This document shows positions 1-28,542 of a stretch of DNA of 28,542 nt, piece after piece. Numbering within the stretch: position 1 is the stretch's first letter; each line of letters starts with the position of its first letter. The notes beneath the pieces are model-generated. The model made no database searches and was not told where the DNA came from. It saw only the letters and a program-made list of their open reading frames with translations. The stretch lies in NCBI GenBank assembly GCA_012646845.1, contig GCA_012646845.1_4707.3. One strand, 5' to 3'. A program made the translations under genes and the position numbers. The DNA comes from a phage.

Positions 1-38
1 AACTGTCGGTAGTAATCAAGGTATTTAAGTTTTGCCAT
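1..38 (-). CDS. 5' end of a minus-strand gene that continues beyond the left edge of the window (product unknown)
   Basis: ATG at 36-38 on the minus strand (translation begins MAKLKYLDYY...), preceded by GGAG about 8 nt upstream, lying 4 nt downstream of the stop of the beta-prime-like gene. Only about 12 codons are visible. Confidence 0.3.
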   Translation of the reverse strand, partial: MAKLKYLDYYRQ

Positions 39-41
39 GGG

Positions 42-1730
42 TTAGGCTCCACGAGGTCCCGTTAAGTTGCGTAATAGGAACGCAACCGTATCGTAACCAA
101 TATCAATGTTGAATTTATTTTTACCACTTACCCAGAAAGCTCGCTTCTTGTGCGAGTTGGTAATTTCGTCAATGGCTTCCATGGAATAAAGAACGTTAAC
201 CGAGACCGTATCACCATCAAAGTCCCCACCAAGTCCGGCGAGGTATGGGGCAGGAACAATAGTAGTTTCTACGAACGAGGCATTAGGTAACCAGTCGGGG
301 TATTCCCATGCGATAAATCGTTCATCCGTTATTGGTTCCCAGTTACTATCCAGTTCGGTTTTCGGTTTTGCCGCAACGGTTGTACGCGCGTAACAGGTTA
401 ACGGGATAACGGATTGCATACCGGATACCGGATAACGTGTTACCATCGCAGCCAGGTTATTCCAGTACTTATATCCGGCAATATAGATAAGCTCGGTGTA
501 AGTAATGGGGTGAACATCCGCACCAGGCTTATTCAGCATCTCCGGAGGTAATTCACTCATGCCACGGAATAACCGAAACGAATCATTATTTACATAGACG
601 AGACAAAGATATCGTCCATTAACCATGATAGGTTCGTTACGCACGCCCGGATCGCTTAAGGTATTCAATAAGCGTTCTATTCCGTCCCATGTTGTAAAGT
701 CATCGATGGTGTCTGGATCAAGCGTAACACGTTCACGTTCCATCGTTTCGGTATCAATAAGTTCAACTTCTGTAACATCACGGACAAATATTTCCTGCAA
801 AATCCCCGTACGTAACGCATGTTGCGTTACAGGGAGAGCAGCTTTACTCATCTGGTATAACCCTAACTGAACTGCGGTACAGGAAGGCTGGTTAGGCGAC
901 CCTAGTACCTCTGTTGTGGGGTTAATTGCCGAAATAACGTTACGGGTTGAGTTCCAAACACGACGTGAGCCGAACTTCCCTTGGAAGATCCCTTTCTTAC
1001 CTTGGAACATGTCCAACAACAAAGCGTAGATATCGTTAAATGTTCTCTGTAAGCTCCAGCGCTGGCCGTCGTAAACGGGATCAGAATAATCTTTTAATCC
1101 ATCAGGGACGGTGTTGGAAATTGCAAGGAAACGACGATACAACTCCGTGATTTCTTGCTCGCTTTCATACCCGCCTTCTTTTACTTCTATTTCACGTAAA
1201 CCCGCAGGTAAAACCAGTAAGTGACGGGTCATCGCTTTGAACATGTTCTCTTCGACAACTTTAATTCGTAGCTCTCGTTGAGCTGAACCCGTTGAAACGA
1301 ACTTAATATCAGCTACGTGCTGTGCAAAGAACCCGTATCCTGTTTGTCCTGTTAACGCATCAGACGCAACGAAGTCGCGTTGTTCAGGATCCCAACGAGC
1401 GTACGCCTTTCCTGACATGATATCACCATAGAGGTGTTTTAGTCGAATGAGGCGGTCGTAAATGACAGGGTGCAGGATTTCAACCTTGCATTCAATCACC
1501 GCAAATCGACGGTCTCGGTCTTCACTGCCCGCACTACCAAAGATGGTGTAAGAATAGAAACCATCATCGTGGAAATTACCGGTGCTTGGGTCACGAATGC
1601 TCATGCTCGTGATCTTGGGGAGAAAACGTAACTGTTGTTTATCGAGGTGCAAAATGCTAATATTAAACGGCTCTCTGACTTTAGCCATGGAGACACTCCT
1701 CTTTACCACCACCGGCTGCGGCGGTATCAT
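42..1730 (-). CDS. Multisubunit RNA polymerase beta-prime-like subunit, N-terminal fragment (phage-encoded split RNAP)
   Basis: 562-aa ORF. The C-terminal region contains GGDFDGDTVSVNVLYSMEA (encoded around nt 212-226), matching the universal beta-prime active-site motif NADFDGD...V.V....EA. Strong SD (AAGAGGAG) about 7 nt upstream of the ATG at 1730. Confidence 0.7.
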   Translation of the reverse strand: MIPPQPVVVKRSVSMAKVREPFNISILHLDKQQLRFLPKITSMSIRDPSTGNFHDDGFYSYTIFGSAGSEDRDRRFAVIECKVEILHPVIYDRLIRLKHLYGDIMSGKAYARWDPEQRDFVASDALTGQTGYGFFAQHVADIKFVSTGSAQRELRIKVVEENMFKAMTRHLLVLPAGLREIEVKEGGYESEQEITELYRRFLAISNTVPDGLKDYSDPVYDGQRWSLQRTFNDIYALLLDMFQGKKGIFQGKFGSRRVWNSTRNVISAINPTTEVLGSPNQPSCTAVQLGLYQMSKAALPVTQHALRTGILQEIFVRDVTEVELIDTETMERERVTLDPDTIDDFTTWDGIERLLNTLSDPGVRNEPIMVNGRYLCLVYVNNDSFRLFRGMSELPPEMLNKPGADVHPITYTELIYIAGYKYWNNLAAMVTRYPVSGMQSVIPLTCYARTTVAAKPKTELDSNWEPITDERFIAWEYPDWLPNASFVETTIVPAPYLAGLGGDFDGDTVSVNVLYSMEAIDEITNSHKKRAFWVSGKNKFNIDIGYDTVAFLLRNLTGPRGA

Positions 1731-1933
1731 CTGAACACACGAGAGACGTAATGGGTGATGGCGTCACCCATCGCTTCCTTGCTTGAGGCGAGGAAGTTAT
1801 TAGGTTACGTGCCTGCCTGATTTTATCAGGTGGGCGATGTGTGAAGTTACGCTTCAACATTATCATTGCCGAAGGTAAACTTCGTGCATCACGTTCCAAC
1901 GTAACATGGGAACGTATCGAACTGGAGGTATAC

Positions 1934-4900
1934 ATGGTAGATAAAACCCGTGTTGAGGGTGATGATAATTGGGATAACTGGGATGATGACTTCTCCCTGG
2001 ATCTCGATTTTAACGAACCCAAAGACGATCGTAAACCGATAACCCGCTTTGCGGTAGGAGCGGTTAAAGGTGCTGCTGAGGATCTTACTTCCTACGAAAG
2101 AATGAAGGAGATCGCCAGAAACGCATTGCCTAAGGGCTACAGCGACGGTATGGATCTTATCGATTCCGCCGTCGGATCCACGAAGGAACTATACAATGAA
2201 GCCGTTCGTGACGTTCTTCCTAAGGTCCAAAGCTCAAAACGGTTAGCCGCACAACTGACCAAGAAATACCGTGCGAGCATGCCCGATTTCTCGAAGAAAA
2301 TTCTTGAGCAATGGGAGCGAGAAGCCAAGGAAGAAGACGAACGTAAACAAGCTGAAGAAACCCTTCGTCAGCGCATGGCGAACGCGGGGGACGATGAGAT
2401 CGCCCGCAAGGTTGCCGAGGCATTAGGCGAATCAGCAAACCAAAGCGCGGATCAGTTTGCTGAACAGCAAGCGAAAGAAAGTATCCGTGACGATATCGCT
2501 GACAAACGGTACGCTGTAACCAACAAGCAAATGAGTGCGATGCAAGAAGGCGTCGCCAAGATGGTTGGTTTCAACAACGAATTTGCTGCGCGCTATATGC
2601 GTAAAAGCCTGGAACTGAAATATCGTTCCTTAGCGATACAACGCGCAAGTTTCGACCAGCATAAAAAGTTAGCCGAAGTCTATATCGGTTTATTACAAAA
2701 CATCCAGAAGAATACGGCTTTACCTGATGCGGCTAAAGCAAAAATGTCGGAAGAATTCCGTCGTAGTGCATACCAACGTTTCTTTGGTAATGCGTTAGAT
2801 GCGATGGGTTCTTTCGAGAACCGTTTCTTTGCCGATGTTAAGAAGAACCTCGCCACCAACGCATTAGGTGCTTTAAAAGGCGTCGTGTCTGGCGCAAACG
2901 ATGCGTTATACGGTTTAAACGAAGCACGTGACTCGATGTCCATGATGGACGGGATGGGGTCAGAAGGCGATATTAAGGAAATGCAAGGAAAGATGTTGGG
3001 TCAGTTCATTGGCTCAACTGTCGCGCCGTGGATGGCTAATAAAGGCAGGATGGCGTTACGCGATTTAGCAAAACGTCACCCCAATGCTAAATTCGCTAGC
3101 GCATTAAAAGCCGTGGATCAAGGTGGTGAGGCTGCCGCTTACACGACGCGTAATCTCGGTAAACTGCTCCAGGAAGATATTCGTAAGAACGAATTCAATC
3201 TTAGCGATCCATTTTACAAGCAATTGTTACGCGGCGCAGGGCGTTGGGCGTTCAACATGGACAGTGGACGTAACTTCCGTGTGATGAACGACACCGCTGA
3301 AACACTGGCAGAGCAAACATCTTTCGACGGTTTAACTTACCGCAGTATCAATGAAGTTATTCCTGGTTTTCTTGCACGCATTCTGAAAAGCAGTGAAGGT
3401 ATCCGCACAGGAAACAGCGATCCTGACTACGAGGTCTATGACGGCATCAGCGGGCAATTCGTGTCTCAGCGCACGCGCGAGCAAAGCGTCAACGACACGC
3501 TGTTTAACAAACGTTCATTTGGTTATTACGCCAGCCGTTTCAACGAGGTTATCTCGGTCATCGATCCTGATAAGCAATTATCGGAAAAAGCCAGGAAGGC
3601 ACTGGCCAAGCAGTTGGCACGAGATAGCGACGCGAACATCGCATTCGACCCGGCTCGTTTTACGGATGAAAGCAACTTCGATCGTAGCATTGATCGTGAC
3701 GCTATTAAGGAACTTTCCACGTACTTTCGTGACCGTTACGGTATTCGTGATGATGTCAACGATAAGGGCGAACGCCATCAGGTCATTGGAAACCGCGGGC
3801 AATATTACACGGAACGTAACCGAGCCGATCTTCGTTACGGTAATCTGAAATCTTTACAACCGGATATCCAGCGTAACCTTAACCTGCTGAAACGTACTGG
3901 TGATGTCCAATATCTGGAACGGATCGGGATTGTAACGAGAAATAGCGACGGGAGCTACTCGGTTAATCACGATCGATATTTCTCTGAAATTGATCAATAC
4001 ATCGACAGACCAGAGTACGCTGACCGCGGCGATGTCAATACACGATTAACTGCTCAGGAAACAAGAGCACTGGCGCTGGGTTATCGTGACGCAAAACCAT
4101 CAGCTGGTGACGTCCAAAATACGGGTCTGCCGAACATCGATCGTAAGGCTGCTGGAACAGTAACCATTGATGAAAACATCGGCTACGATAAATGGTGGAA
4201 CGACGCAGGTGTTATCACCACATCGCTTGAAGAACAGAATCGAGCGTGGCAAGAGCTTTATCTCGAGGCGTTGTCCGAAGCATCCGAACAACGTGTTGAA
4301 ATGCTTGCGTTGCTGAAAGCCATTTCTGAGAAAGACTGGTCTAATAACGTTTCGCTGGATGGCGAAGACGTACCTGAAGGTGCAGCGCCCATTTCATTTA
4401 TCGATCGCACCAAACAAAAGCTCGGCACACGCAACCTCTTTAAAGGCGGTCGTAATCTCCTCTGGAAAGGAATTAAAAATACCGCACGGTTGGGTGTTAA
4501 AGGTGCACGCTGGGGTGCAGAACGTACACTAGGTAGTTTGGTAAATTCCGGCAGACGTATTATCGATTTCAACCGTTTTGTGTTCGGCGCATTATCCAAG
4601 GTTGATCAGGTTCCGTTTGACATTTACGTTAAAGGGGAATCCCAACCACGCATATTGGCTGCCAAACTTCGTCAGGGGTTATACTTCGACGAAGCGACAG
4701 GAAAAGCCGTAAAACGAATGAAGGATATCAAAGGCCCACTCGTTGATGCGGATGGAAACATCGTAATCAGCAACGAGGATATCGAGAAAGGGTTGGTCAC
4801 TCGCGCTGGTCGCGCCTTTGAGAATTCAGGACTTAAAGCGTGGGCGCATGAGGGTCTTAATGGAATCACGACGGTATTAAGTCTGCCACGGATGTTAAAA

Positions 4901-7900
4901 CGCGGCGCGGTTGAGATCTACAAACAGCTCGACAAAACGCCCGACGTTTACGTCAAGGGAGAATCAACGCCTCGTCTATTATCCATGGTGTTAGCGGCGG
5001 GTGGGTATTTCCGTCGCTCCGACGGACAAACCATCAAAAATCTTGAAGACATCGATGGCGATGTTGTTGATGCACAAGGTAACGTCGTACTTACGCTTGC
5101 CGACATGCAGAAAGGACTTGTCGATAAATACGGTAAAGCGATTCGGCGCTTAAAAGAAAAGCTTATCAACTTCGGTGTAAAAGCTTTTACGTTACCGTTA
5201 ACGCTGTTACGTAAGACAAAGGACATCCTTAAAACCCTTCCAGGTAAAACCGTTAACGGCCTACGACGGATGGGATTAAATTTCCAATCACCTGACGCAT
5301 TACTGGTGGGAACAACATCGAGCATGGTAGATCGTCTCGATGCTATTTACCAGCTTCTTGACCAACGTATGCCGGGTGGCGATAGGGATTATCGCGATTG
5401 GAATGGGGATGGTGTTCGAGAAGGATCGTTGGAAGACCTGAAACGTAAGCGTGAAGCCAAGGAAAACGGTAAGGATGGCACCGGCAAAGATTCCAATAAA
5501 GGAGAAGAAAAGGAGAAGAAACGAGGATTACTCGGAAGCCTTTTCGATATGCTTGGCGATACCGCATTAGGTAAACGACTCATGGCGAGTCCGCTTGGAA
5601 AAATTCTAGGTGGTCTTGGGGCGGTGTTAAGTGGCGGAGCATCGTTAACCGGATTGTTGGGTAAGGGTCTCATTAGTGGAACCGGCGCGCTAGTCAAGGG
5701 AGGACTAAGTGCGGCAGGATGGTTAGGACGTGGTGCGTTAATGGCGGGCGGGGCCGCATTGAACGCTGTTGGCGGGTTATCGGGATTAGGCGCATTCCTT
5801 ATATCACCTGTTGGGCTTGCTATTGCAGGTGGTGCATTGGCTGCTTATGCGGGATGGAAGATCTATCAGCATTTCGCCGAGAAGCCTGACCCGATGCAGA
5901 AGCTCCGTCTTATTGCGTACGGTGCAAAAGGGGACGATAAAGACTTCAATAAGAAGCTGCTTGCGACAGAAACATACCTCACCGACCACGTGGTTATGAC
6001 CGGGGATACCATCGGATTCGATCCGAAAGCCGACTCGGAAAAGATTCTCGAAATCTGGGAATTGTCTCTGGAAGATTCCGACCGAATGAACGAATGGAAA
6101 CGCTGGTATCTGCATCGTTTTATTCCTGTTTTCGCTCGTGCGTACAAACTCTGGAAAGAGCATATGCCGGACGAGAAGAAATACATGGAAATGGATAAAT
6201 ATCCGAACGGTGAGAACAAAGTGAAATGGTCGGAAGCGTTTATCTGGCCTTCCGATAGTCCTGACGGTCCGTATTACGTCGAAGCTAACCCGTTGGGTTC
6301 TTCTGGTGCGACGCGTTATATTGCTGGTCAAGACGTCAAAACCTTGATGCTGAAACAACTCGAAGCCATCAAGAAAGAGTACCAGAATCAGATCAAACAA
6401 TACTCTCATGATGAGGCTATTGCTGATTGGTCACGGATGTCTGACACACAACGTAAATCCGTTGCGCCTAACGCATTACGCGGTCAGAAAGCGTCGTTAC
6501 GTTTTAACGATAAACGTTATAACAGTGCTGGCGCTAAAGGACGACAGAAGCTTGACGCAACCGCGGTTATTGAAAGCGTAGACCGTCGTGGTAGAAAATG
6601 GGTCGCCGGTGGATACATCGATGAACTCACCAGTCTTCGTGTTCGTGCGTACGGTATTAAGGTTCCGTTGTTAAGTCAGATAAAAGTGCTGATGGAACTC
6701 GAAGACGCTGTAGAACCCGGTGTTGTCGCTGAAGGTAAAGGTGTTAAATACGGTGGCGATCTTGTCGCGCTCTACAAGAAATTCGCGACGAAGTTCGGAA
6801 GAGACGTTAACAGCAAGCAGGATCAGGATATCTGGTTTGCTTGGATGAATAACCGTTTCCTGCCCGTCTTTTTAACCTATTACCAGCACGTTAGCGACAT
6901 GGGTGGCCAAGGTCTTCTGTCCGATGTGGTACAGAACCTGAAAGACAGCCAACGCTGGGAGATCGGTGAGGCACTTGTCGCAACGCAATACCGTGATGAG
7001 AAAGGTGCACTCCAGCCTGTATGGTCCTGGAATAGTTGTGGTTTCTCCGGTACTGAAGCTAACACCACCAGCAGTTCAACAAAGAGCCAACTCGATCTGT
7101 TAAAAGAATATGCGGATAAAGAGAAGGTTCGTGAGAAGAACGCGGAAGCATCGCAAGAGGATACCGATAAATTATCGAAGATCCAAGAGCTGATGATGAA
7201 GCAGGCTGGGTACGAGAAGAAAGACGGTGTCTGGCAGAAGAAATCACGCATTACCGGTGGGATGAGTAACTCCGAAGCGAATTACAACCCCAATGGGAAT
7301 AGGGTAGGTGCAAGCAGCTTTACCGCTTCAGCTACTTCCAGTGCGGGATTGGGGTCAACCGGCGATCTTACCGGATTGCCTAACATGGGCTTACAGAAAC
7401 CTGCAACGGGACCAGGTCCCGAAGCTGGACGTCGTGCGCTTGTTAAATCCGCTGTGAAACGCGGTATTACCGATCCAATGGAAATGGCGATGTTCCTTGC
7501 AAACATCGAACATGAATCGGGGAACTACACTCACGTACGTGAGGGGAACTATAAGACACCAGAGCGTCTTAAACAGGTCTTCCCTTACAAATTCCGTGAC
7601 GTGCAGGATGCAGCGCAGACGATTAGCATGGGGCCGGAAGCGGTATTCGAACGCGTGTACGGTAATCGTAAAGACTTAGGGAACACGCAGAAAGGAGACG
7701 GTGCGAAGTATTTAGGACGTGGCTTCATTCAGGTTACCGGTAAAGCTAACTACGCTCGTCTGTCCAAGACCTTGAATAAAGATCTTGTCAGCGATCCATC
7801 ATACCTGGAAACGCCGGAAGGTGCGGCGGAAGGTAGTGTCGCGTGGTGGCTCAACCGAGGCAATGTGTTACGCGATCCTGCGAAACGGGGTGATGTGCGC

Positions 7901-8599
7901 CAAGTTCGTTATCTGGTTAACGGCGGCTATAATGGATTACGTGATGTTGAACAGCGCTCTGCTTATTGGATTCAGGCGGCTAAGAACGGCACCCTGAAGA
8001 AAATGATGGACGAGTTATCAGGGTCAACATCCGACGATCAAGCTGAAGGACCGACCACTGCCGAACAGGTGAAGAACGAAGCAGCACAAGAGGCAAACGG
8101 AACACCTGCTGTAAGCAACGATCCGCAAGCCCCAGCACCTTCTACCACCCCTGAAGCTAAACCGTCGGCGGCTGCCGGTACGGCTCCAGCACCCGGAGAA
8201 GCATCACCAACGCCTGGAAGTTTCGAAACAGCGAAAGCTGCGGTAGGACAACCGACATCAACGCCAGCACTTAGCGATTTGCCGTCAAACCCCGGCGCAA
8301 ATCGAGGGATATCGGTTCCGAATACACCCGCACAGGTCGCGCAGTCTGCGACACAAACATCGGTCGCGAGTGAGAACTTCTACGGTAGCGCAGGTGAAAT
8401 TCTCCGACAGCAGCTGACCACGCAGCAGAACATCGAGAAGAACACCGGTAGAACGAATGAACTTATTTCGGAATTAATCCAAGCCGTTAAGGGTTCTTCT
8501 ATCGGTAAGGGTTCTGCAAGTCCTTCTCAACAACAGGCGATGTCGCTACCTAATCGTCCGCAAGGAATCTCTCCAACACGGACAAGGTACGCACAGTAG
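1934..8599 (+). CDS. Giant virion-associated protein (~2,221 aa) with glycine-rich hydrophobic segment and GH19-like peptidoglycan hydrolase domain
   Basis: Single uninterrupted ORF. The track starts it at GTG 1841; I prefer ATG 1934, preceded by GGAGG (1924-1928) at 5-nt spacing. Motifs FLANIEHESGNY...YLGRGFIQVTGKANY (nt ~7490-7760) resemble GH19 lysozyme/chitinase signatures. Gly/Ala/Leu-rich hydrophobic stretch at nt ~5515-5880. P/A/S/T-rich linker at nt ~8040-8330. Hairpin terminator follows. Confidence 0.8.
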   Translation: MVDKTRVEGDDNWDNWDDDFSLDLDFNEPKDDRKPITRFAVGAVKGAAEDLTSYERMKEIARNALPKGYSDGMDLIDSAVGSTKELYNEAVRDVLPKVQSSKRLAAQLTKKYRASMPDFSKKILEQWEREAKEEDERKQAEETLRQRMANAGDDEIARKVAEALGESANQSADQFAEQQAKESIRDDIADKRYAVTNKQMSAMQEGVAKMVGFNNEFAARYMRKSLELKYRSLAIQRASFDQHKKLAEVYIGLLQNIQKNTALPDAAKAKMSEEFRRSAYQRFFGNALDAMGSFENRFFADVKKNLATNALGALKGVVSGANDALYGLNEARDSMSMMDGMGSEGDIKEMQGKMLGQFIGSTVAPWMANKGRMALRDLAKRHPNAKFASALKAVDQGGEAAAYTTRNLGKLLQEDIRKNEFNLSDPFYKQLLRGAGRWAFNMDSGRNFRVMNDTAETLAEQTSFDGLTYRSINEVIPGFLARILKSSEGIRTGNSDPDYEVYDGISGQFVSQRTREQSVNDTLFNKRSFGYYASRFNEVISVIDPDKQLSEKARKALAKQLARDSDANIAFDPARFTDESNFDRSIDRDAIKELSTYFRDRYGIRDDVNDKGERHQVIGNRGQYYTERNRADLRYGNLKSLQPDIQRNLNLLKRTGDVQYLERIGIVTRNSDGSYSVNHDRYFSEIDQYIDRPEYADRGDVNTRLTAQETRALALGYRDAKPSAGDVQNTGLPNIDRKAAGTVTIDENIGYDKWWNDAGVITTSLEEQNRAWQELYLEALSEASEQRVEMLALLKAISEKDWSNNVSLDGEDVPEGAAPISFIDRTKQKLGTRNLFKGGRNLLWKGIKNTARLGVKGARWGAERTLGSLVNSGRRIIDFNRFVFGALSKVDQVPFDIYVKGESQPRILAAKLRQGLYFDEATGKAVKRMKDIKGPLVDADGNIVISNEDIEKGLVTRAGRAFENSGLKAWAHEGLNGITTVLSLPRMLKRGAVEIYKQLDKTPDVYVKGESTPRLLSMVLAAGGYFRRSDGQTIKNLEDIDGDVVDAQGNVVLTLADMQKGLVDKYGKAIRRLKEKLINFGVKAFTLPLTLLRKTKDILKTLPGKTVNGLRRMGLNFQSPDALLVGTTSSMVDRLDAIYQLLDQRMPGGDRDYRDWNGDGVREGSLEDLKRKREAKENGKDGTGKDSNKGEEKEKKRGLLGSLFDMLGDTALGKRLMASPLGKILGGLGAVLSGGASLTGLLGKGLISGTGALVKGGLSAAGWLGRGALMAGGAALNAVGGLSGLGAFLISPVGLAIAGGALAAYAGWKIYQHFAEKPDPMQKLRLIAYGAKGDDKDFNKKLLATETYLTDHVVMTGDTIGFDPKADSEKILEIWELSLEDSDRMNEWKRWYLHRFIPVFARAYKLWKEHMPDEKKYMEMDKYPNGENKVKWSEAFIWPSDSPDGPYYVEANPLGSSGATRYIAGQDVKTLMLKQLEAIKKEYQNQIKQYSHDEAIADWSRMSDTQRKSVAPNALRGQKASLRFNDKRYNSAGAKGRQKLDATAVIESVDRRGRKWVAGGYIDELTSLRVRAYGIKVPLLSQIKVLMELEDAVEPGVVAEGKGVKYGGDLVALYKKFATKFGRDVNSKQDQDIWFAWMNNRFLPVFLTYYQHVSDMGGQGLLSDVVQNLKDSQRWEIGEALVATQYRDEKGALQPVWSWNSCGFSGTEANTTSSSTKSQLDLLKEYADKEKVREKNAEASQEDTDKLSKIQELMMKQAGYEKKDGVWQKKSRITGGMSNSEANYNPNGNRVGASSFTASATSSAGLGSTGDLTGLPNMGLQKPATGPGPEAGRRALVKSAVKRGITDPMEMAMFLANIEHESGNYTHVREGNYKTPERLKQVFPYKFRDVQDAAQTISMGPEAVFERVYGNRKDLGNTQKGDGAKYLGRGFIQVTGKANYARLSKTLNKDLVSDPSYLETPEGAAEGSVAWWLNRGNVLRDPAKRGDVRQVRYLVNGGYNGLRDVEQRSAYWIQAAKNGTLKKMMDELSGSTSDDQAEGPTTAEQVKNEAAQEANGTPAVSNDPQAPAPSTTPEAKPSAAAGTAPAPGEASPTPGSFETAKAAVGQPTSTPALSDLPSNPGANRGISVPNTPAQVAQSATQTSVASENFYGSAGEILRQQLTTQQNIEKNTGRTNELISELIQAVKGSSIGKGSASPSQQQAMSLPNRPQGISPTRTRYAQ

Positions 8600-8648: not shown

Positions 8649-10790
8649 ATGGGTATTCTTGTTCAAAACGCCCTAATCACCAAACAGGCGTTTTTATTAC
8701 CAGGCGATAGCAGCACGCTGAGTGCCGACATGATTAAAGCGAGACATACACCGTATTCCTACGATAACGTCGATGATACCACTTTAGGCGGGAACTGGGT
8801 GCTTAACCCACCACCGCAATATACCAAATTTGCCGACATCAAAGAACGCCGACGTGCGGTTATGCCGGGATCAACGGGCATGGGCCGAGGCTATAGTGAA
8901 AGCATTAACAGCTTTAAAGAAGTCGTTACGTTACGATTCGGTAAACCTCGCTTTACAGGCGCAAGTATCTTCTTTACTGATTTCTACGATGCTGATGTTG
9001 CCGTAACGGTTAAAACCGGTCGCGATCCCGGTATTCTTTATTACGCAGCCAAAGCGTATACCACCGTTCTTTCTTACCTCACACCGCTACCTTACTTGTA
9101 TATGGTTGGACGTATTGGTCGATATTTCCTGGGTAAGCCTACCAGTCAATATTACTATCAAGTACCAACCATGCACGTGTATTGGGCATCTTTCCAGACA
9201 CTGGTAAACCAAACAGCGATAAACATGGGTCTTATCGCCGGTGCTGGTAAAGATAAAGGCTACGTGGAAGAAGGGGGTACCGTACTCCACCAATATTCAA
9301 TCGGTGGCCAGAACGTTGAAGAATTCATCAACTACGCCTCTAAGACGCTACCGGGGATTTATAAGAAAGGTGGTGGGATCGATATCTACCAGATCGCAAC
9401 ACGGCGTCAGCGCATACAGAACGCATGGGTACGTCGTATTCAATCCATGATGGAAAACGATTACTCGTCGTACGAGGAGTTCTGGAACGATCTTGATAAA
9501 CGACTTGATAGCGGAGCGTTTCCATCGGATGTAACCGGCCGTACGCTAACGCAGTATCTCGCCGACACACAGAAGTCTGCTGTTTACAGTGCGACAGCTG
9601 GTGATAATAAACAAACGATGGACGACCTTTTATTCGGAAGGGCCTCGTACACCAATAAAGATGCTGACGCCAACTTCAATGTCTCAGCGGCTACCTCCGA
9701 CGGAGGTACGTCAACACAGAGTCAGGGCACAACAGCCAATGTCGGCAATTCGACGTCAGGGACAACACAGGCTTCAACAGCAGCATCAACAGCTGGAGGC
9801 GCGAACGTACAGAGCAAAGGAATCGGGCAAACGAACGCAGCCGAAGAAGCTACGTTTCTTGATCTGATGGATGCTGAATTGGCCGACGGTGCTCAGTTCA
9901 TCAGTTTTCGAGTCGATTCTGTCACCAGTGTAACCGAAACGTTTTCAAACAGTGCTTCCGAAAGTTCTATCGCACAGACGATGAATAGCCGCGCGCAAGC
10001 GAACATCGAACGTCGTTTCACCCTCTCCGGTGGTAATACGGGTTGGGCTGTACTGGACGAAGCAATCAAAGCCGGTTCCGATCTCGTTAATGGCGCTATT
10101 TCCGGGATGGGTCTGGATGGTATTTTTGGTGCCTTCATGGGTTCCGGCTTCGCAGACATTCCGAAATTCTATTCTGGGTCGTCAGTAAGTCTACCGCGTG
10201 CCGATCTGACGATGGAATTGCGTTCCTGGAGTGGGGACCGCTGGTCGATCTTTACGAACCTCATGGTACCTCTTTTGGCTATCCTTGCAGGTGGTTTACC
10301 TCAGGCTACCGGTAAATCGTCCTACGGGATGCCGTTCATGTGTGAGTGTTATGTTCCCGGTAAAGTCCAGATTAAAATGGGCCTTATCGATAACATCACT
10401 GTGACGCGTCATGTTGGAAACGTACCATCAACACGCGAGCGTTTACCGTTGGGCATCGATGTCAGCTTCAGCGTTTATGACTTGTCGTCTATCGTCGCCA
10501 TGCCGATCACAACGACGGCCGCATCGATCGCAAAATTAGATCCTCGTGGCTTCTTAAGTGATCTTCTTGCTGATGATACTCCGCTCAACAACTATCTTGC
10601 TGTATTATCGGCATTGACACTTACGGAACAAGTTTACATGATTCCTGATTTAAGTCGTCGCATGCATAAAACCATGGCTGATATCGACAGTTTCTGGAGC
10701 AAAGGTAATTTTGCTAGCTGGTTGTCTGACACCATGCCAGGCAGGATAGCATCAGGGCTGTTATGGAAACGTACAGAACGACCGTTCTGA
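8649..10790 (+). CDS. Hypothetical protein (713 aa), possibly structural; contains S/T/G-rich low-complexity linker
   Basis: Long ORF with GAGGAA SD 6 nt upstream of the ATG. Same strand and immediately downstream of the giant protein gene. No recognisable catalytic motif. Confidence 0.75.
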   Translation: MGILVQNALITKQAFLLPGDSSTLSADMIKARHTPYSYDNVDDTTLGGNWVLNPPPQYTKFADIKERRRAVMPGSTGMGRGYSESINSFKEVVTLRFGKPRFTGASIFFTDFYDADVAVTVKTGRDPGILYYAAKAYTTVLSYLTPLPYLYMVGRIGRYFLGKPTSQYYYQVPTMHVYWASFQTLVNQTAINMGLIAGAGKDKGYVEEGGTVLHQYSIGGQNVEEFINYASKTLPGIYKKGGGIDIYQIATRRQRIQNAWVRRIQSMMENDYSSYEEFWNDLDKRLDSGAFPSDVTGRTLTQYLADTQKSAVYSATAGDNKQTMDDLLFGRASYTNKDADANFNVSAATSDGGTSTQSQGTTANVGNSTSGTTQASTAASTAGGANVQSKGIGQTNAAEEATFLDLMDAELADGAQFISFRVDSVTSVTETFSNSASESSIAQTMNSRAQANIERRFTLSGGNTGWAVLDEAIKAGSDLVNGAISGMGLDGIFGAFMGSGFADIPKFYSGSSVSLPRADLTMELRSWSGDRWSIFTNLMVPLLAILAGGLPQATGKSSYGMPFMCECYVPGKVQIKMGLIDNITVTRHVGNVPSTRERLPLGIDVSFSVYDLSSIVAMPITTTAASIAKLDPRGFLSDLLADDTPLNNYLAVLSALTLTEQVYMIPDLSRRMHKTMADIDSFWSKGNFASWLSDTMPGRIASGLLWKRTERPF

Positions 10791-23714: not shown

Positions 23715-23763
23715 AAAAAAAAAAAATGATAGTCACGGACCCTCCAATGAAGGAGGGTCGTGA
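23715..23763 (-). terminator. Intrinsic terminator for the convergent minus-strand gene
   Basis: Hairpin GTCACGGACCCTCC-aatgaa-GGAGGGTCGTGAC (23733-23763), followed on the minus strand by a 12-nt U tract (plus-strand A12 at 23715-23726). Confidence 0.65.
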
Positions 23764-23772
23764 CCGTCAGTT

Positions 23773-24474
23773 TTAGGATGTAGATAATCTCGCGTACTTC
23801 TGGCGAACATGGTTCTTACGGCGAACTTCGTCATCCTCGTCACGCCATTCGAGGTAAGCAACGAATCGACGTAACTGTGCTGCTGTCATCGTTGACGATC
23901 GGTCTTCTACATCTAGAACGACGTAACGAACGCCACCAACATCATCGCAATCAACGTAATTGAATACCATAAGACCATCACTGTATTCAACGACGGTAAC
24001 TTCGAACCGTTTCTCGAACAAATAAAACAGTTCCGATTCGATGATCATCGGAATGACGCATATATCAGCACGATCGAGGATTTCCATCATCACCCGTAAC
24101 GCGCGAGGAGTATGGCGAGCGAACTGACCGTTAAAACGTTGTCTCATTGCTTGTTCCACGCCATCTGTTTTTGTTCCAAACCAAGGACGTATTACAGATT
24201 TCGGTGGTGTGAGACGAAAGCGATATGCCTGTATAAACAACAGAATATCAGCGACGTTAGGAAATTCTTCCTGGTCTTCGTATATCTTGCGGATAATATC
24301 CGGAATCGTAACCATCAAGTATTTCTTATCGCCTCCCACTTTCTCGAGATTAGCAATATGCCCTTCTACTACTGGCTGGTAAACGAAATTATACCAATGA
24401 CGGTATCTTGCGGCACGCTGGTAGTTCGGGATAAAATTAAGAACAACATTCACTGCACGTTTTAACGGGTTCAT
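23773..24474 (-). CDS. Hypothetical protein (233 aa)
   Basis: ATG at 24472-24474 with AAGGA SD. Track uses TTG 24477. Confidence 0.7.
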   Translation of the reverse strand: MNPLKRAVNVVLNFIPNYQRAARYRHWYNFVYQPVVEGHIANLEKVGGDKKYLMVTIPDIIRKIYEDQEEFPNVADILLFIQAYRFRLTPPKSVIRPWFGTKTDGVEQAMRQRFNGQFARHTPRALRVMMEILDRADICVIPMIIESELFYLFEKRFEVTVVEYSDGLMVFNYVDCDDVGGVRYVVLDVEDRSSTMTAAQLRRFVAYLEWRDEDDEVRRKNHVRQKYARLSTS

Positions 24475-24488
24475 CAAAAGGTTCCTTC

Positions 24489-24902
24489 TTATGTTTTAAT
24501 ATGCACATCGTCAATCCCCTCGGTAATCCAGCCGATGGGAAGGACAATCGTTGTTATCGTGTTATGGGTGTAGGGATTAAGAAAATGGAAATAGTAATTT
24601 TTGTTAGACTGTTCGATGCGTAGCTCGAGCTGCGCGTCTTCAGGTAACCGCAACCAAGCACCGTACAGTTCATTAAACTTACGCTGAATTTTACCCGGGT
24701 TCATTGGAACCCTACGACCACGATGGCGTAACTGACGTAATGATTCAATCAAACACTCAGAGATACCCATTACCGTTCCGTTATCGCTTGTATCAATAAC
24801 GATGAACTCATGTGACCCGCGGCCATGATAGAATCCAGCAACAAGCGCAACGGCGACAACGACAACCGTACCGATACCTACGTACCAATAGTAAACGTCC
24901 AT
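24489..24902 (-). CDS. Small membrane protein (137 aa), N-terminal TM helix
   Basis: ATG at 24900-24902 (MDVYYWYVGIGTVVVVAVALVAGFY...) with GAGG SD. Track uses TTG 24923. Confidence 0.6.
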   Translation of the reverse strand: MDVYYWYVGIGTVVVVAVALVAGFYHGRGSHEFIVIDTSDNGTVMGISECLIESLRQLRHRGRRVPMNPGKIQRKFNELYGAWLRLPEDAQLELRIEQSNKNYYFHFLNPYTHNTITTIVLPIGWITEGIDDVHIKT

Positions 24903-24913
24903 AACAGCCTCAC

Positions 24914-25441
24914 TTATACCCAATAGTCGGCGAGCGGTTTCACCTTATTAATGGGTAACTGTACCTTACCGATGTTCTCTACATCCGCATCAGCGTAGAG
25001 AACGATTTTATCGTCGTCTCTTTCCCAACGAATAATAAATCGACCAGGAAGAAGATTACCCTGTTCAAGAGATGCTGTAACCTGTTGTGTTAAAACAGAC
25101 AACCAAGCAGGCATCAGTGTTGCAATATCTAAGTCGTTTGACCACTCAGCACGTTGCTCCACCGGGCGTAACATACGTTCGACGGTGCGTTGAACCGTTG
25201 CGGTGATATAGCCTTTATCTTCGTCACTGATTGGATCAGGGCGAGACACGAAACGTTCAGCAGGTTTACGGGAAATATGCTCATGTAAATCGATGAGTGG
25301 TGTTGTCATAGTACTCGCTCCATCAGAATGTAATTGGGTAACCCGTAGGGTTGTCTGCATGCTATTCAGAAGCGCAAAAGCGCCATAAACAACAACGATA
25401 CCAAGTATAGCCAAAACAGAAATCATTAACGTGTATTGCAT
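24914..25441 (-). CDS. Small membrane protein (175 aa), N-terminal TM helix
   Basis: ATG at 25439-25441 (MQYTLMISVLAILGIVVVYGAFALL...) with AGGGGAG 6 nt upstream. Track uses TTG 25489. Confidence 0.6.
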   Translation of the reverse strand: MQYTLMISVLAILGIVVVYGAFALLNSMQTTLRVTQLHSDGASTMTTPLIDLHEHISRKPAERFVSRPDPISDEDKGYITATVQRTVERMLRPVEQRAEWSNDLDIATLMPAWLSVLTQQVTASLEQGNLLPGRFIIRWERDDDKIVLYADADVENIGKVQLPINKVKPLADYWV

Positions 25442-25479
25442 TGTCATCTCCCCTACATACGCATCTTGAAGATCGGTTA

Positions 25480-25536
25480 AAAACAACAAAAGAAAAAACG
25501 ATATAAAGCAAGGTCCTCTGATATCAGAGGACCTTG
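25480..25536 (-). terminator. Intrinsic terminator between minus-strand genes
   Basis: 28-nt perfect palindrome CAAGGTCCTCTGATATCAGAGGACCTTG (25509-25536), preceded on the plus strand by an A-rich run that gives a U tract on the minus-strand transcript. Confidence 0.55.
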
Positions 25537-25542
25537 GATCAA

Positions 25543-26199
25543 TTAGCTTGCAGCTTCTTCATTTGTATCAGGTTTGCTTCCCCCTAACAAACCGTCAAAC
25601 AGACCCGTATGTTTCAGGTAGAAGAGAGCGATAGCGCCCATTGCTGCTGCGCTCGTCGCCGTTAACGCAACCCCGGCACGATACTGCCATTTACGGTCGG
25701 GCTTTTGATCAAGAGCCATACGACGCATGTATTCAGCCTCTGCCTCATTCCGATGAATTTCGGATTCAGCCAAGCGGGCTAAGGTATCGCGGTCAAGGTT
25801 ATCATAACGTACGTTCATGGTGGTTTCCTCTTGTTTGGAAGTTGATTGCTTAGTGGATTCTTGGTCAATAGTCGTTTCAGATGGTTCAAACGGCTGGTTG
25901 TTCATTTTCTGATCTTTATTGGTCATGATAGACTCCTTCGATTTTTGAGACGAAATTGATTTAAACCATCGTGGATGGCGGTATTCAGTTTTACATGTGC
26001 AGTTAAGTTTCTCGTGCAGGAAAGCGTAAAAACGTTTTGCGCCTACACGTAAGGCTTTCAGCATTACCCATCCACGAGCACTCAAACGGTGTAGCTGTTG
26101 CGGTATGTCTAGTTTCCTAGCCAAGCGAAAGTATCTTTCAATCACTTCGATAGGAAACCATTGTTGTTCCACATCGGTGAGACTGAAAGTCTTATCCAT
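25543..26199 (-). CDS. Hypothetical protein (218 aa) with basic N-terminal region and C-terminal TM helix; may be two genes
   Basis: ATG at 26197-26199. An internal in-frame ATG at 25924-25926 (MTNKDQK...) has a strong AAGGAG SD, so a shorter 128-aa product is possible. C-terminal hydrophobic segment VALTATSAAAMGAIALFYL. Confidence 0.55.
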   Translation of the reverse strand: MDKTFSLTDVEQQWFPIEVIERYFRLARKLDIPQQLHRLSARGWVMLKALRVGAKRFYAFLHEKLNCTCKTEYRHPRWFKSISSQKSKESIMTNKDQKMNNQPFEPSETTIDQESTKQSTSKQEETTMNVRYDNLDRDTLARLAESEIHRNEAEAEYMRRMALDQKPDRKWQYRAGVALTATSAAAMGAIALFYLKHTGLFDGLLGGSKPDTNEEAAS

Positions 26200-26349
26200 G
26201 AATGAAATCTCGCTGGCTTACTTCACTTAAGTAATATAGCCGTGAAAAATGTTGGATTAAGTTAAATACTGCAACCGTAACTGATTTTATGGGCTTTTAG
26301 CCTAAACCAATCATCTTCGGAATCATCATCTTTGAAACAGGAACCTATC

Positions 26350-27171
26350 ATGGAAAAAGTATTTGTTTGTAAGTTGTTTACTAACGGCAATAGCCAACCA
26401 ATGTACCTGACCGATCCAGTTCTAGGTAATCGGAACAGCACCGTATTCAAAGAAGCTATCGAATACGCTAAAAATAAAGCCGTGAGAACACTGACGTCCG
26501 ATGACTGTATCAACGGTATCACGTGGGCAGAGTTATTCGGTGATGCTGTTAGACACTTCGTTCGGGACGCAAGAAAACGGGAAATCTGTCTCACGACTAT
26601 TGTTGTGCGCGAAAACGCAGAAATCTTATCAAACGTTTTAGTTGATTTTAATGACGTTTGCGTGTTTAATCCAGAGAACACGTTTGAACAATATCTTACT
26701 GCCCTGAACAACCAGCTCGGTAAAGATATTCATCCCGAATTCGCCAAGTTAACGTATCAAGTGCTTTTTAACGACGTCGATCCAAACACAAAGATCAACA
26801 CCAGCTTATCGCCCCTGGTAAAGAAATACGGATCGGTTCTTGCTACGGCAACATCCACCACCGATGGCGGTTATGATATCGAATTGGATGGTCCATTAAA
26901 AGAACAAGAACCTACTGGGGTTCGGGCAATACACCATACCCTCGTCGTTAAATCCGATGGTTGTGATGAGCATTACGCTATGACAAACGATGAAAATAAT
27001 CACCGTTTAAGTCAAGCGATCGGTGTTCTACGTTATACCGAACCAACCACTGTAGACGATTATACATCGACAACAACGCACACCACGTGTTTCATTTTCA
27101 TCTATCCCAATGAAAGTGTGTACATTACCGACTGCTACGGCAACACCGTAGATAGCTTACGTCGTTATTGA
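26350..27171 (+). CDS. Hypothetical protein (273 aa)
   Basis: ATG at 26350 (MEKVFV...) with AGGAA SD. Track uses TTG 26332. Followed by a canonical terminator. Confidence 0.7.
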   Translation: MEKVFVCKLFTNGNSQPMYLTDPVLGNRNSTVFKEAIEYAKNKAVRTLTSDDCINGITWAELFGDAVRHFVRDARKREICLTTIVVRENAEILSNVLVDFNDVCVFNPENTFEQYLTALNNQLGKDIHPEFAKLTYQVLFNDVDPNTKINTSLSPLVKKYGSVLATATSTTDGGYDIELDGPLKEQEPTGVRAIHHTLVVKSDGCDEHYAMTNDENNHRLSQAIGVLRYTEPTTVDDYTSTTTHTTCFIFIYPNESVYITDCYGNTVDSLRRY

Positions 27172-27177
27172 TTATCG

Positions 27178-27206
27178 AGCCTGTCCTTCGGGGCAGGCTT
27201 TTTATG
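27178..27206 (+). terminator. Canonical rho-independent terminator
   Basis: AGCCTGTCC-ttcg-GGGCAGGCT stem-loop followed by TTTTTAT, 7 nt after the stop. Confidence 0.7.
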
Positions 27207-27229
27207 CTGTTAAATATCAGGAATAAGAA

Positions 27230-27259
27230 TTAACAAAATAGGAAAATGGTGTGAATATA
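27230..27259 (+). promoter_or_regulatory. Candidate sigma70-like promoter
   Basis: TTAACA (27230-27235), then 17 nt, then GAATAT (27253-27258). Sits between a terminator and a strong SD at 27265-27272. Weak match; by eye only. Confidence 0.25.
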
Positions 27260-27280
27260 ACACAAAGGAGGGAGATGATT

Positions 27281-27397
27281 ATGTTACTCATTCTAATGGA
27301 GAGAGCATTGCTGGCGGGTATATGCGCATTCTCTGTTAAACACGCTGTTGCTATCATGACTGAAGAAAGGCGTAATACGCATAATGTATTACGCTGA
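27281..27397 (+). CDS. Small hydrophobic peptide (38 aa), not in the ORF track
   Basis: ATG at 27281 lies 9 nt downstream of AAGGAGGGAG. Translation MLLILMERALLAGICAFSVKHAVAIMTEERRNTHNVLR. Stop at 27395-27397 is 5 nt before the next ATG. Confidence 0.35.
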   Translation: MLLILMERALLAGICAFSVKHAVAIMTEERRNTHNVLR

Positions 27398-27402
27398 AAA
27401 CA

Positions 27403-27816
27403 ATGTCTGCATTAGTGTATGACGAGAAATCGTCGAGGCCCCCGTCTTCACGAGGGCCAACACCTATGCGCGACTATTTATCATCTACGAAACAAAAGGT
27501 TATAAACATGAGCAATTTGAATGTTGAGTTTACTTCAACAACGCCTGTCATGAATGGTGTTGGTACTGAAACCAAGATCGTATTAGAACCCATTCCGGGA
27601 TTACGTGATCTCGGTGATTTTTACCAACTGATGCCACGTATACGTAACGCCTTAAACAGTATCGATCTTGATTCCGATAAAGATTTCCAACACGATACAG
27701 AAAATACCGATCATGTGTTGCTACCATCAGGGATCGGAAAATTCACCTACACGCAAACATTGAAAGCCTCCGATGGTGAGATCCGTCGTTTTATTGTTGA
27801 AGTAGAAAGCGCATAA
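27403..27816 (+). CDS. Hypothetical protein (137 aa)
   Basis: ORF from ATG 27403. An alternative start at the ATG around 27508 (MSNLNVEF...) is possible. Followed by a two-tier hairpin. Confidence 0.55.
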   Translation: MSALVYDEKSSRPPSSRGPTPMRDYLSSTKQKVINMSNLNVEFTSTTPVMNGVGTETKIVLEPIPGLRDLGDFYQLMPRIRNALNSIDLDSDKDFQHDTENTDHVLLPSGIGKFTYTQTLKASDGEIRRFIVEVESA

Positions 27817-27821
27817 AAACC

Positions 27822-27851
27822 ATCCTCCCTTCCCTTACGGGTTGGGAGGAT
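27822..27851. terminator. Two-tier hairpin (conserved core, copy 3); acts as terminator for the minus-strand tmk gene
   Basis: ATCCTCCC-TT-CCC-TTAC-GGG-TT-GGGAGGAT. On the minus-strand transcript it is followed by GGUUUUU. Confidence 0.55.
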
Positions 27852-27869
27852 GAAATATGCCGTTATATG

Positions 27870-28489: not shown

Positions 28490-28542
28490 TACGAGACATT
28501 CCCCGCTCCAATTAACTATTTCGTTTTTGCCGTCAACGGCTG

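What the first reader, a model, noticed from the sequence alone, without database searches (positions are those of the whole stretch)
1934..8599. Giant multidomain protein: hydrophobic glycine-rich segment, GH19-like hydrolase domain and low-complexity linkers
Three regions stand out. nt ~5515-5880 encode a ~120-aa Gly/Ala/Leu-rich hydrophobic stretch (GLLGSLFDMLG...GGLGAVLSGGASLTGLLGKGLISGTGALVKGG...), typical of membrane-inserting segments in ejected or tape-measure-like proteins. nt ~7490-7760 carry GH19-like motifs (EHESG ... YLGRGFIQVTGKANY). nt ~8040-8330 encode a Pro/Ala/Ser/Thr-rich linker. Together these suggest an ejected cell-wall-penetrating protein.
Basis: partly seen in the sequence, partly recalled or inferred. 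Interest (0 to 1): 0.5.

Follow-up and report, generated by a model that had tools for sequence, protein, structure and literature searches.

The report
Jumbo-phage tail tape-measure lysin protein
This 2,221-residue gene is the giant tail protein of a close relative of E. coli jumbo phage Goslar (the counterpart of phiKZ gp181), which carries a cell-wall-cutting enzyme and a membrane-seeking segment for breaching the host envelope; it is a known kind of protein, not a new one.

Summary
All three observed regions are real and sit at the stated coordinates in one ORF (ATG 1934, stop ending 8599; 2,221 aa). The window is about 96% identical in DNA to E. coli jumbo phage Goslar, and the protein is 98% identical to Goslar gp204. 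It is the positional and sequence ortholog of phiKZ gp181 and SPN3US gp239.

- **GH19 domain (aa 1821-2035):** endolysin-type, with an intact active site.
- **Gly/Ala/Leu block (aa 1198-1312):** conserved in position in most of the members profiled.
- **Lytic module:** a swappable cassette (SLT in most relatives, GH19 here).
- **Virion evidence:** published proteomics finds the Goslar ortholog in virions at about 3-8 copies. The SPN3US ortholog is missing from tailless particles.

The best reading is a tape-measure-like protein in the tail-tube lumen. On sheath contraction it would be expelled to cut peptidoglycan and insert into a membrane, as phage T5 Pb2 does. Tail-lumen location, ejection and membrane insertion are inferred, not shown. 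The finding is essentially already known, so interest is low to moderate. Neither 2026 cryo-EM atlas (phiKZ, Goslar) models this protein, which leaves its structure in the particle open.

The parts
1924..1928 (+). Shine-Dalgarno GGAGG, 5 nt upstream of ATG 1934
   Evidence: Read directly from the sequence.
1934..8599 (+). CDS of the giant tail protein (2,221 aa plus stop). Ortholog of Goslar gp204 (YP_009820915 / QBO64023), phiKZ gp181 and SPN3US gp239.
   Evidence: Met1 aligns with the start Met of 97% of distant homologs.
2036..3409 (+). aa 35-492: long alpha-helical region, including one predicted helix spanning aa 118-260. About 87% helix in the model at low to moderate confidence. Candidate ruler part.
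   Evidence: AF2 model m55d03f1b188c. Conserved motifs in the family consensus.
3431..4033 (+). aa ~500-700: compact alpha/beta domain (pLDDT 80-92) of unknown function, with no relative among solved structures.
4598..5191 (+). Internal duplication A: aa 889-971 and 998-1086, small beta-rich 'D(V/I)YVKGES.PR.L' modules.
   Evidence: Self-BLASTP gives 42% identity, E = 6e-23. AF2 pLDDT is about 80. Conserved in the family consensus.
5525..5869 (+). aa 1198-1312: Gly/Leu/Ala-rich hydrophobic block. Its core, aa 1267-1308 (nt 5732-5857), is 42 residues without a charge and is followed by an aromatic/basic border, YAGWKIYQHF. Putative membrane-inserting hairpin.
   Evidence: Not folded as a monomer by AF2 (pLDDT <50).
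5858..6460 (+). aa 1309-1509: middle module B1 (alpha/beta, pLDDT about 90), specific to this family.
   Evidence: no PDB match; 236 clusters hit, almost all giant proteins with the module at an equivalent position.
6614..7240 (+). aa 1561-1769: middle module B2, a diverged duplicate of B1.
   Evidence: BLASTP between the two modules gives 27% identity, E = 4e-5. AF2.
7250..7393 (+). aa 1773-1820: Ser/Gly/Thr-rich disordered linker.
   Evidence: pLDDT <50.
7394..8038 (+). aa 1821-2035: GH19 endolysin-type glycosidase domain. Active-site residues are H1860, E1861, E1870, Y1909, Q1933, T1935, V1995, N1996 and R2008.
8039..8326 (+). aa 2036-2131: Pro/Ala/Ser/Thr-rich disordered linker.
   Evidence: The peptide at aa 2102-2124 of the Goslar ortholog was seen in virions.
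8327..8596 (+). aa 2132-2221: C-terminal tail with a predicted helix (aa 2151-2186, pLDDT about 70). Present in most family members ('L..QL.VQ ... P..PV.MR' in the consensus). Candidate docking element for the baseplate hub.
   Evidence: The docking role is inferred from T5 Pb2.
8649..10790 (+). Context: downstream gene, equivalent to Goslar gp203, the tail-tube initiator that binds the spike cap.
   Evidence: Coordinates map onto the Goslar record. Function from the cryo-EM preprint.
42..1730 (-). Context: divergently transcribed virion RNA polymerase beta-type subunit gene. This synteny is conserved across the family.

Best explanation
The gene encodes the giant tail protein of a Goslar-like chimallivirus, the ortholog of phiKZ gp181 and SPN3US gp239. 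It is a low-copy virion protein.

Proposed mechanism: the protein sits inside the tail tube as a tape-measure-like core. Its C-terminal tail is anchored at the baseplate hub next to the tube-initiator protein encoded by the adjacent gene. When the sheath contracts and the spike is lost, the protein is expelled through the tube tip. The GH19 muramidase-type domain, held between two flexible linkers, then cuts the peptidoglycan locally. The uncharged Gly/Ala/Leu block inserts into a host membrane to anchor or line the conduit for DNA and co-injected proteins.

Shown here: orthology, conserved synteny, domain architecture, GH19 fold with an intact active site, conservation of the hydrophobic block, and cassette-like exchange of the lytic module.
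Shown by others for orthologs: presence in virions, tail association, essentiality, and muralytic activity of the phiKZ domain.
Inferred: location in the tube lumen, length measurement, ejection, and membrane insertion.
For: - **Orthology and synteny:** 95.7% nt and 98% aa identity to Goslar gp204. aa 35-1730 align with the phiKZ-type 'structural peptidoglycan hydrolase' of KTN4. The arrangement vRNAP-beta | giant gene | gp203/gp182-like gene holds in seven genera.
- **GH19:** E = 5e-24 to the muramidase 9EOI. Eight of its nine active-site residues are identical and one is conservative, including both catalytic Glu. AF2 pLDDT is mostly >90 and Foldseek's top hits are GH19 endolysins.
- **Hydrophobic block:** present at aa ~1,100-1,600 in most of the 75 members profiled, which are 21-47% identical.
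- **Lytic cassette:** exchanged at the same site. By my hand count of the precomputed Pfam column, about 64 members have SLT, 5 have GH19 plus 5 below threshold, and others have M23, CHAP or VanY.
- **Tail context:** the next gene is the tube initiator and the one after it a baseplate wedge protein.
- **Virion proteomics:** 34 peptides and about 3.4-8 copies per virion, labelled 'Tail protein', with N- and C-terminal peptides both present.
- **Orthologs:** SPN3US gp239 is absent from tailless particles, and its Seoulvirus equivalent matches the family profile at E about 1e-212. phiKZ orf181 is essential and 'likely the tape measure', and its domain is muralytic at 60,000 U/mg.
- **Structure:** aa 35-492 is predicted as long helices.
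- **Volume:** three to six copies would fill 14-28% of the tube lumen (using the 68 A lumen and 37.73 A rise).
- **Analog:** T5 Pb2 has the same order of parts and the proposed behaviour.
Against: - No structure places the protein. Both 2026 atlases (phiKZ, Goslar) model neither it nor any tape measure, and never mention one.
- The simple ruler arithmetic does not fit. The whole protein as a helix would be about 3,300 A against a tube of about 1,740 A. The clearly helical part (aa 35-492) would span only about 690 A. phiKZ has a shorter tail but a slightly longer protein.
- There is no tail-assembly-chaperone gene upstream.
- AF2 gives no confident fold for the hydrophobic block, and only its last ~42 residues reach transmembrane-grade hydrophobicity.
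- The block is weak in phiKZ itself.
- The Pfam GH19 hit is below the gathering score (18.3 against 25.5 bits).
- No experiment has been done on this phage.
Confidence: 0.68

Rival explanations
1. It is part of the cell-puncturing device, a hub- or spike-attached tail lysozyme like T4 gp5. This was the older view of phiKZ gp181.
For: A review lists gp181 as a 'needle-like cell-puncturing device, putative trimer'. GH19 domains are also found fused to gp5-type hub proteins, for example in PhiW-14. The copy number of about 3-8 fits a trimer.
Against: The Goslar baseplate hub and spike are fully assigned to gp13, gp48, gp203 and gp62, with 'all density' of the hub and inner baseplate accounted for and no gp204. 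No OB-fold or beta-helix spike domain is predicted. The protein is about 4-10 times larger than known spike lysozymes.
Confidence: 0.12
2. It is a head-packaged ejection protein, like the T7 gp16 internal core protein, that travels with the DNA.
For: Chimalliviruses inject many virion proteins. T7 gp16 also combines a lytic domain with membrane-spanning function (own knowledge; mentioned).
Against: The SPN3US ortholog is absent from DNA-filled tailless heads. The copy number is low, whereas several head-packaged proteins are present at hundreds to thousands of copies. The gene sits next to tube-initiator and baseplate genes.
Confidence: 0.07
3. It is the phage's endolysin or a chitinase acting from within at the end of infection, as the GenBank name 'putative chitinase' suggests.
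For: The GH19 domain is related to many true endolysins.
Against: It is 2,221 aa with about 90% non-enzymatic scaffold, and it is incorporated in virions. Orthologs carry other lytic folds at the same site. The closest characterised GH19 relative does not cleave chitin.
Confidence: 0.03
4. It is a tail fiber or receptor-binding protein, as the RefSeq product name and the PHROG 3201 label say.
For: The annotation labels only.
Against: There is no fibre-like beta-helix, collagen-like or carbohydrate-binding fold in either model. It has an internal hydrophobic block and a lytic enzyme. The Goslar study assigns host recognition to DUF7941 filament proteins.
Confidence: 0.03

Closest known systems
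Goslar gp204 (YP_009820915.1 / QBO64023.1, Goslar_00232)
   Same: 98% amino-acid identity over the full length (39 substitutions), the same neighbours and the same three regions. Detected in Goslar virions.
   Different: Only point substitutions, concentrated in the linkers. The deposited CDS starts 31 codons earlier at a GTG, which homolog alignment does not support. The window phage lacks the intron and homing endonuclease just upstream.
phiKZ gp181 (structural peptidoglycan hydrolase; seen here as KTN4_221) and SPN3US gp239 ('tape measure protein')
   Same: Homologous scaffold (aa 35-1730, 24% identity; family profile E about 1e-212), the same size (2,237 and 2,373 aa), the same synteny, and a lytic module about 340-370 aa from the C-terminus. 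These proteins are tail-associated and essential.
   Different: The lytic module is an SLT lytic transglycosylase in phiKZ rather than GH19. The hydrophobic block is much weaker in phiKZ.
Phage T5 Pb2 (multifunctional tape measure protein)
   Same: The same order of parts: a long tube-filling N-terminal region, a hydrophobic stretch of about 46 residues, a muralytic domain, and a short C-terminal helix that docks in the hub. Pb2 is expelled on triggering, forms a membrane channel and digests peptidoglycan.
   Different: No sequence relationship was detected or tested. T5 is a siphophage, and Pb2 is half the size with a zinc peptidase rather than a glycosidase. The two middle modules and the repeats of the present protein have no counterpart. 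Whether this protein is cleaved is unknown.
GH19 endolysins (PaGH19Lys 9EOI, SPN1S 4OK7, KTN6 gp46 8P8E)
   Same: The same fold and active site, and probably the same muramidase chemistry.
   Different: Those are free-standing enzymes of about 200 aa that act from within at lysis. Here the domain is one module of a virion protein acting from without.

Membership tests
phiKZ gp181 / SPN3US gp239 family of giant chimallivirus tail proteins | Sequence homology across the non-enzymatic scaffold | tested here: met
   tblastn of aa 35-1730 against KTN4 gives E = 3e-32. PHROG 3201 gives E = 1.6e-294. There are 121 homologs of roughly 1,500-3,900 aa. A profile built from the family matches the SPN3US-type protein at E about 1e-212.
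phiKZ gp181 / SPN3US gp239 family of giant chimallivirus tail proteins | Conserved gene neighbourhood: divergent vRNAP beta genes upstream and a gp182/gp203-like gene downstream | tested here: met
   The same arrangement is found in Goslar, KTN4, PS1, 2050HW, pVp-JHP1101, RP12 and SPFM22.
phiKZ gp181 / SPN3US gp239 family of giant chimallivirus tail proteins | A peptidoglycan-hydrolase module near the C-terminus | tested here: met
   GH19 at aa 1821-2035. Orthologs carry SLT or GH19 at the equivalent site.
phiKZ gp181 / SPN3US gp239 family of giant chimallivirus tail proteins | Structural component of the virion tail | not testable with these tools
   Literature on orthologs only: Goslar virion mass spectrometry and SPN3US tailless particles.
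Glycoside hydrolase family 19, endolysin subfamily | GH19 fold | tested here: met
   AF2 pLDDT is mostly >90. Foldseek hits are 7R6S, 4OK7, 9EOI, 9MS7 and 8P8E (E 1e-7 to 4e-6, target TM-score 0.5-0.76), followed by chitinases.
Glycoside hydrolase family 19, endolysin subfamily | Catalytic Glu pair and active-site residues of a characterised member (9EOI: H50, E51, E60, Y103, Q127, T129, I187, N188, R197) | tested here: met
   The window protein has H1860, E1861, E1870, Y1909, Q1933, T1935, V1995 (Ile to Val), N1996 and R2008.
Glycoside hydrolase family 19, endolysin subfamily | Pfam PF00182 gathering score | tested here: not met
   18.3 bits against a cut-off of 25.5, matching only profile positions 103-141. 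The Aeromonas PS1 ortholog does pass, at 27.4 bits. I judge the shortfall to reflect how far endolysin-type GH19 domains are from the Pfam model, given the strong PDB and PHROG matches, rather than a real failure of membership.
Glycoside hydrolase family 19, endolysin subfamily | Muramidase (not chitinase) activity on peptidoglycan | not testable with these tools
   Needs an enzyme assay. The nearest characterised relative is a muramidase with no activity on chitin.
Tape measure proteins (functional class) | Extended, largely alpha-helical protein | tested here: inconclusive
   aa 35-492 is about 87% helix, and further long helices lie at aa 758-888. The rest consists of globular modules, and model confidence is low.
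Tape measure proteins (functional class) | Protein length scales with tail length | tested here: inconclusive
   Goslar has 46 tube rings and a 2,221-aa protein; phiKZ has 43 rings and 2,237 aa. With only two data points there is no simple proportionality.
Tape measure proteins (functional class) | Located in the tail-tube lumen | not testable with these tools
   Not modelled in either atlas. By volume, 3-6 copies would fit.
Tape measure proteins (functional class) | Preceded by tail-assembly-chaperone genes with a programmed frameshift | tested here: not met
   The upstream gene is a divergently transcribed vRNAP subunit. From my own knowledge, this feature is not universal among myophages; T4 lacks it.
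Tail fiber proteins (database label) | [quoted passage not shown] | tested here: not met
   Neither model contains such a fold, and there is no structural match.

The most novel reading that the evidence does not exclude
The conserved hydrophobic block of this protein, delivered to the inner membrane by the contracting tail and working with the tethered muramidase, might do more than line a channel. It could be the phage factor that anchors the tube tip and nucleates the inner-membrane invagination that becomes the early phage infection (EPI) vesicle of chimalliviruses. That would make this unmodelled giant protein the missing link between tail contraction and vesicle formation.
Probability: 0.1. 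Interest if true: 0.75.

Novelty: already known. Interest (0 to 1): 0.27.

Why it matters
As it stands, the finding mainly corrects annotation. The databases call this gene 'putative chitinase' or 'tail fiber protein', when it is the gp181-type tape-measure-like tail lysin. Its start codon in the Goslar record is probably 31 codons too early.

It also points at a real gap. This is the largest protein in these virions and is essential in phiKZ, yet both 2026 structural atlases leave it out. Its conserved layout is a helical region, repeats, a hydrophobic block, two family-specific modules, an exchangeable lytic cassette, a linker and a C-terminal tail. That gives a concrete map for experiments on how nucleus-forming jumbo phages cross the envelope and deliver DNA into a membrane vesicle. 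The GH19 module is also a candidate enzybiotic domain.

Tried and rejected
- **Glycine zipper:** GxxxG motifs are fewer than composition predicts (3 observed against 7.4 +/- 2.1 in 2,000 shuffles), so the block is not a glycine zipper.
- **Simple ruler arithmetic:** residues x 1.5 A against tube length does not fit, either for the whole protein or for the helical part.
- **Pfam and NCBIfam on the whole protein:** only a sub-threshold GH19 hit and no NCBIfam hit.
- **N-terminal half against solved structures:** nothing below E = 0.37.
- **Middle modules against PDB:** no match.
- **Exhaustive search with module B1:** it found only the same giant-protein family and gave no functional clue.
- **Literature on particle location:** the Goslar and phiKZ atlases, the phiKZ review and the core-genome paper contain nothing on a tape measure or gp181.
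- **Rfam and tRNA scans of the window:** empty.
- **Not attempted:** sigma-70 promoter scanning (to my knowledge these phages use their own polymerases); direct sequence comparison with T5 Pb2 (no sequence at hand).

Full report
**Observation.** The window has one very long ORF on the + strand, 1841..8599. In an alignment with 35 distant homologs, that Met lines up with their initiator Met in 97% of rows. The product is therefore 2,221 aa and 245 kDa.
- aa 1198-1312 has 30 Gly, 24 Leu and 19 Ala out of 115 residues, only nine charged residues, and hydropathy peaks of 1.6-1.9.
- aa 1853-1943 carries EHESG ... YLGRGFIQVTGKANY.
- aa 2036-2133 is 49% Pro/Ala/Ser/Thr.

**What the window is.** The gene is 95.7% identical in DNA and 98% in protein to one gene of Escherichia jumbo phage vB_EcoM_Goslar (Goslarvirus, Chimalliviridae). 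GenBank calls that gene 'putative chitinase' and RefSeq calls it 'tail fiber protein' (gp204). The whole window is collinear with Goslar and runs across the ends of the deposited linear record. The divergently transcribed upstream genes encode virion RNA polymerase beta-type subunits. The Goslar cryo-EM preprint identifies the downstream genes as gp203, the tail-tube initiator that contacts the spike cap, and gp202, a baseplate wedge protein. The same arrangement (vRNAP beta genes, then the giant gene, then a gene of about 580-730 aa) is found in phiKZ-type KTN4, Aeromonas PS1, Serratia 2050HW, Vibrio pVp-JHP1101, Ralstonia RP12 and the SPN3US-like SPFM22. In KTN4 the giant gene is the 2,237-aa 'structural peptidoglycan hydrolase', that is, phiKZ gp181. 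It aligns with aa 35-1730 of the window protein.

**Anatomy.** Two AlphaFold2 runs with a 40-sequence family alignment, self-comparison and conservation profiling give this order of parts:

| Residues (aa) | Feature |
|---|---|
| 35-492 | Long helices, about 87% helix, one predicted helix spanning 118-260, low to moderate confidence |
| ~500-700 | Confident compact alpha/beta domain |
| 758-888 | More long helices |
| 889-971 and 998-1086 | Two small beta-rich repeats (42% identical, E = 6e-23) |
| ~1150-1197 | Charged Lys/Glu/Gly-rich stretch |
| 1198-1312 | Hydrophobic block, not folded as a monomer |
| 1309-1509 and 1561-1769 | Two confident alpha/beta modules, diverged duplicates (E = 4e-5) |
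| 1773-1820 | Ser/Gly-rich linker |
| 1821-2035 | GH19 domain, mostly pLDDT >90 |
| 2036-2131 | Pro-rich disordered linker |
| 2132-2221 | C-terminal tail with a helix, present in most members |

The N-terminal half and the two middle modules have no relative among solved structures. An exhaustive search with the first middle module hit 236 clusters at 50% identity. Almost all are giant proteins with the module at an equivalent position, usually in two copies.

**The enzyme.** The domain matches solved phage-type GH19 enzymes: 9EOI at E = 5e-24, plus 7R6S, 9MS6/7, 4OK7 and 8P8E. It matches PHROG endolysin family 181 at E = 1.5e-53. Foldseek on the model returns the same endolysin-type structures first and plant and bacterial chitinases after them. 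The characterised relative PaGH19Lys (9EOI) is a muramidase with no activity on chitin, and its active site is H50, E51, E60, Y103, Q127, T129, I187, N188 and R197. The window protein has H1860, E1861, E1870, Y1909, Q1933, T1935, V1995, N1996 and R2008 at the aligned positions. The Pfam GH19 hit falls below the gathering score. I attribute this to the distance between endolysin-type GH19 domains and that model. 'Chitinase' is therefore the wrong name; a peptidoglycan glycosidase is expected.

**The hydrophobic block.** It is a family feature. A Gly/Ala-rich segment with hydropathy peaks up to 2.5 sits between residues ~1,100 and 1,600 in most of the 75 members profiled, in five fetched orthologs and in SPFM22, but it is weak in phiKZ/KTN4. 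It is not a glycine zipper. Its most membrane-like part is a 42-residue uncharged stretch (aa 1267-1308) followed by YAGWKIYQHF. That is long enough for a two-helix hairpin.

**The lytic module is a cassette.** At the same distance from the C-terminus, KTN4, 2050HW, the Vibrio phage and RP12 carry an SLT lytic transglycosylase. The window phage, Goslar and Aeromonas PS1 carry GH19. By my hand count of the precomputed Pfam column for the 120 listed homologs, about 64 have SLT, 5 have GH19 (plus the five Goslar-like ones below threshold), 5 M23, 9 VanY, 7 CHAP, 10 DUF5675 and 6 peptidase S74.

**Evidence from the literature on orthologs.**
- Peptides from aa 393-406, 739-753, 771-787 and 2102-2124 are in the stored list, so both ends are present in particles.
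- In SPN3US the 'tape measure protein gp239' is among 28 proteins missing from tailless, DNA-filled heads. The equivalent Seoulvirus protein matches the family profile end to end.
- The phiKZ lytic domain is muralytic.
- Neither 2026 atlas models the protein or mentions a tape measure.

**Mechanism proposed.** This is an inference built on the T5 Pb2 precedent. In Pb2 a tube-filling tape measure has a hydrophobic stretch of about 46 residues, then a muralytic domain, then a C-terminal helix docked in the hub. On triggering it is expelled to form a channel and digest peptidoglycan. Here, three to six copies would occupy the unusually wide tube; they would fill only 14-28% of its volume. The C-terminal tail would sit at the hub beside gp203. 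Sheath contraction would release the protein. The GH19 domain, on its two flexible linkers, would open the murein, and the hydrophobic block would insert into a membrane. The strict 'ruler' part of the idea is the weakest, because the lengths do not scale simply.

**Rivals.** A spike-attached lysozyme is unlikely because the hub and spike are fully assigned to other proteins. A head ejection protein is unlikely because of the SPN3US tailless data and the low copy number. An endolysin or chitinase role is unlikely because of the size, the virion incorporation and the cassette exchange. A tail fiber is unlikely because no fibre or receptor-binding fold is present.

**Novelty and score.** The protein is a near-identical copy of a deposited gene, and its family prototype has been studied, so I rate it already known. 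What remains open is where it lies in the particle and what the hydrophobic block does in a phage family that delivers its DNA into a membrane vesicle. That is the basis for the low-probability novel reading.

Noticed in passing
window 1-2500 (junction at about 221-223), compared with Goslar MK327938 211754-213798: The window lacks 2,045 bp that Goslar has just upstream of the giant gene. That stretch holds the annotated group I intron and an HNH_3/NUMOD1 homing-endonuclease gene (Goslar_00230), which interrupt the virion RNA polymerase beta-type subunit gene. Here the gene is uninterrupted (ORF 42..1730 on the - strand, 562 aa, against 502 aa annotated in Goslar). This is an intron-minus allele and a natural presence/absence pair for homing.
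   Followed up: partly
window 1841-1933; Goslar_00232 / P0001: The deposited Goslar CDS, and the 2,252-aa database cluster, start at a GTG 31 codons upstream of ATG 1934. The ATG has a GGAGG and aligns with the start Met of 97% of distant homologs, so the deposited start is probably too early.
   Followed up: yes
window 23715-28542: The match to Goslar reaches the last bases of the linear record at window 23726 and resumes at record position 45 (93.8% identity). The window therefore crosses the ends of the deposited genome, consistent with a circularly permuted or circularly assembled genome.
   Followed up: partly
proteins P0006, P0057, P0058, P0064: Family members occur in NCBI bacterial assemblies (Caballeronia arationis, Paraburkholderia spp.) on contigs of 143-492 kb. 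One is named 'cell pole-organizing protein PopZ'. These look like jumbo-phage genomes hidden in bacterial assemblies, with misleading names.
   Followed up: no
protein P0150: A 581-aa protein matches the family-specific middle module in seven separate stretches. It appears to be a stand-alone repeat protein built from this otherwise giant-protein-restricted module.
   Followed up: no
window 4598-5191 and 5858-7240: There are two separate internal duplications inside the giant gene (repeat A at 42% identity, repeat B at 27% identity). Both are conserved across the family and have no known function.
   Followed up: partly
PMC13250141 (phiKZ atlas), not the window: The phiKZ atlas places gp144, which it describes as a lytic transglycosylase, as a structural wedge linking the neck whisker collar to the tail sheath. 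If so, phiKZ virions may carry two different wall-degrading proteins.
   Followed up: no
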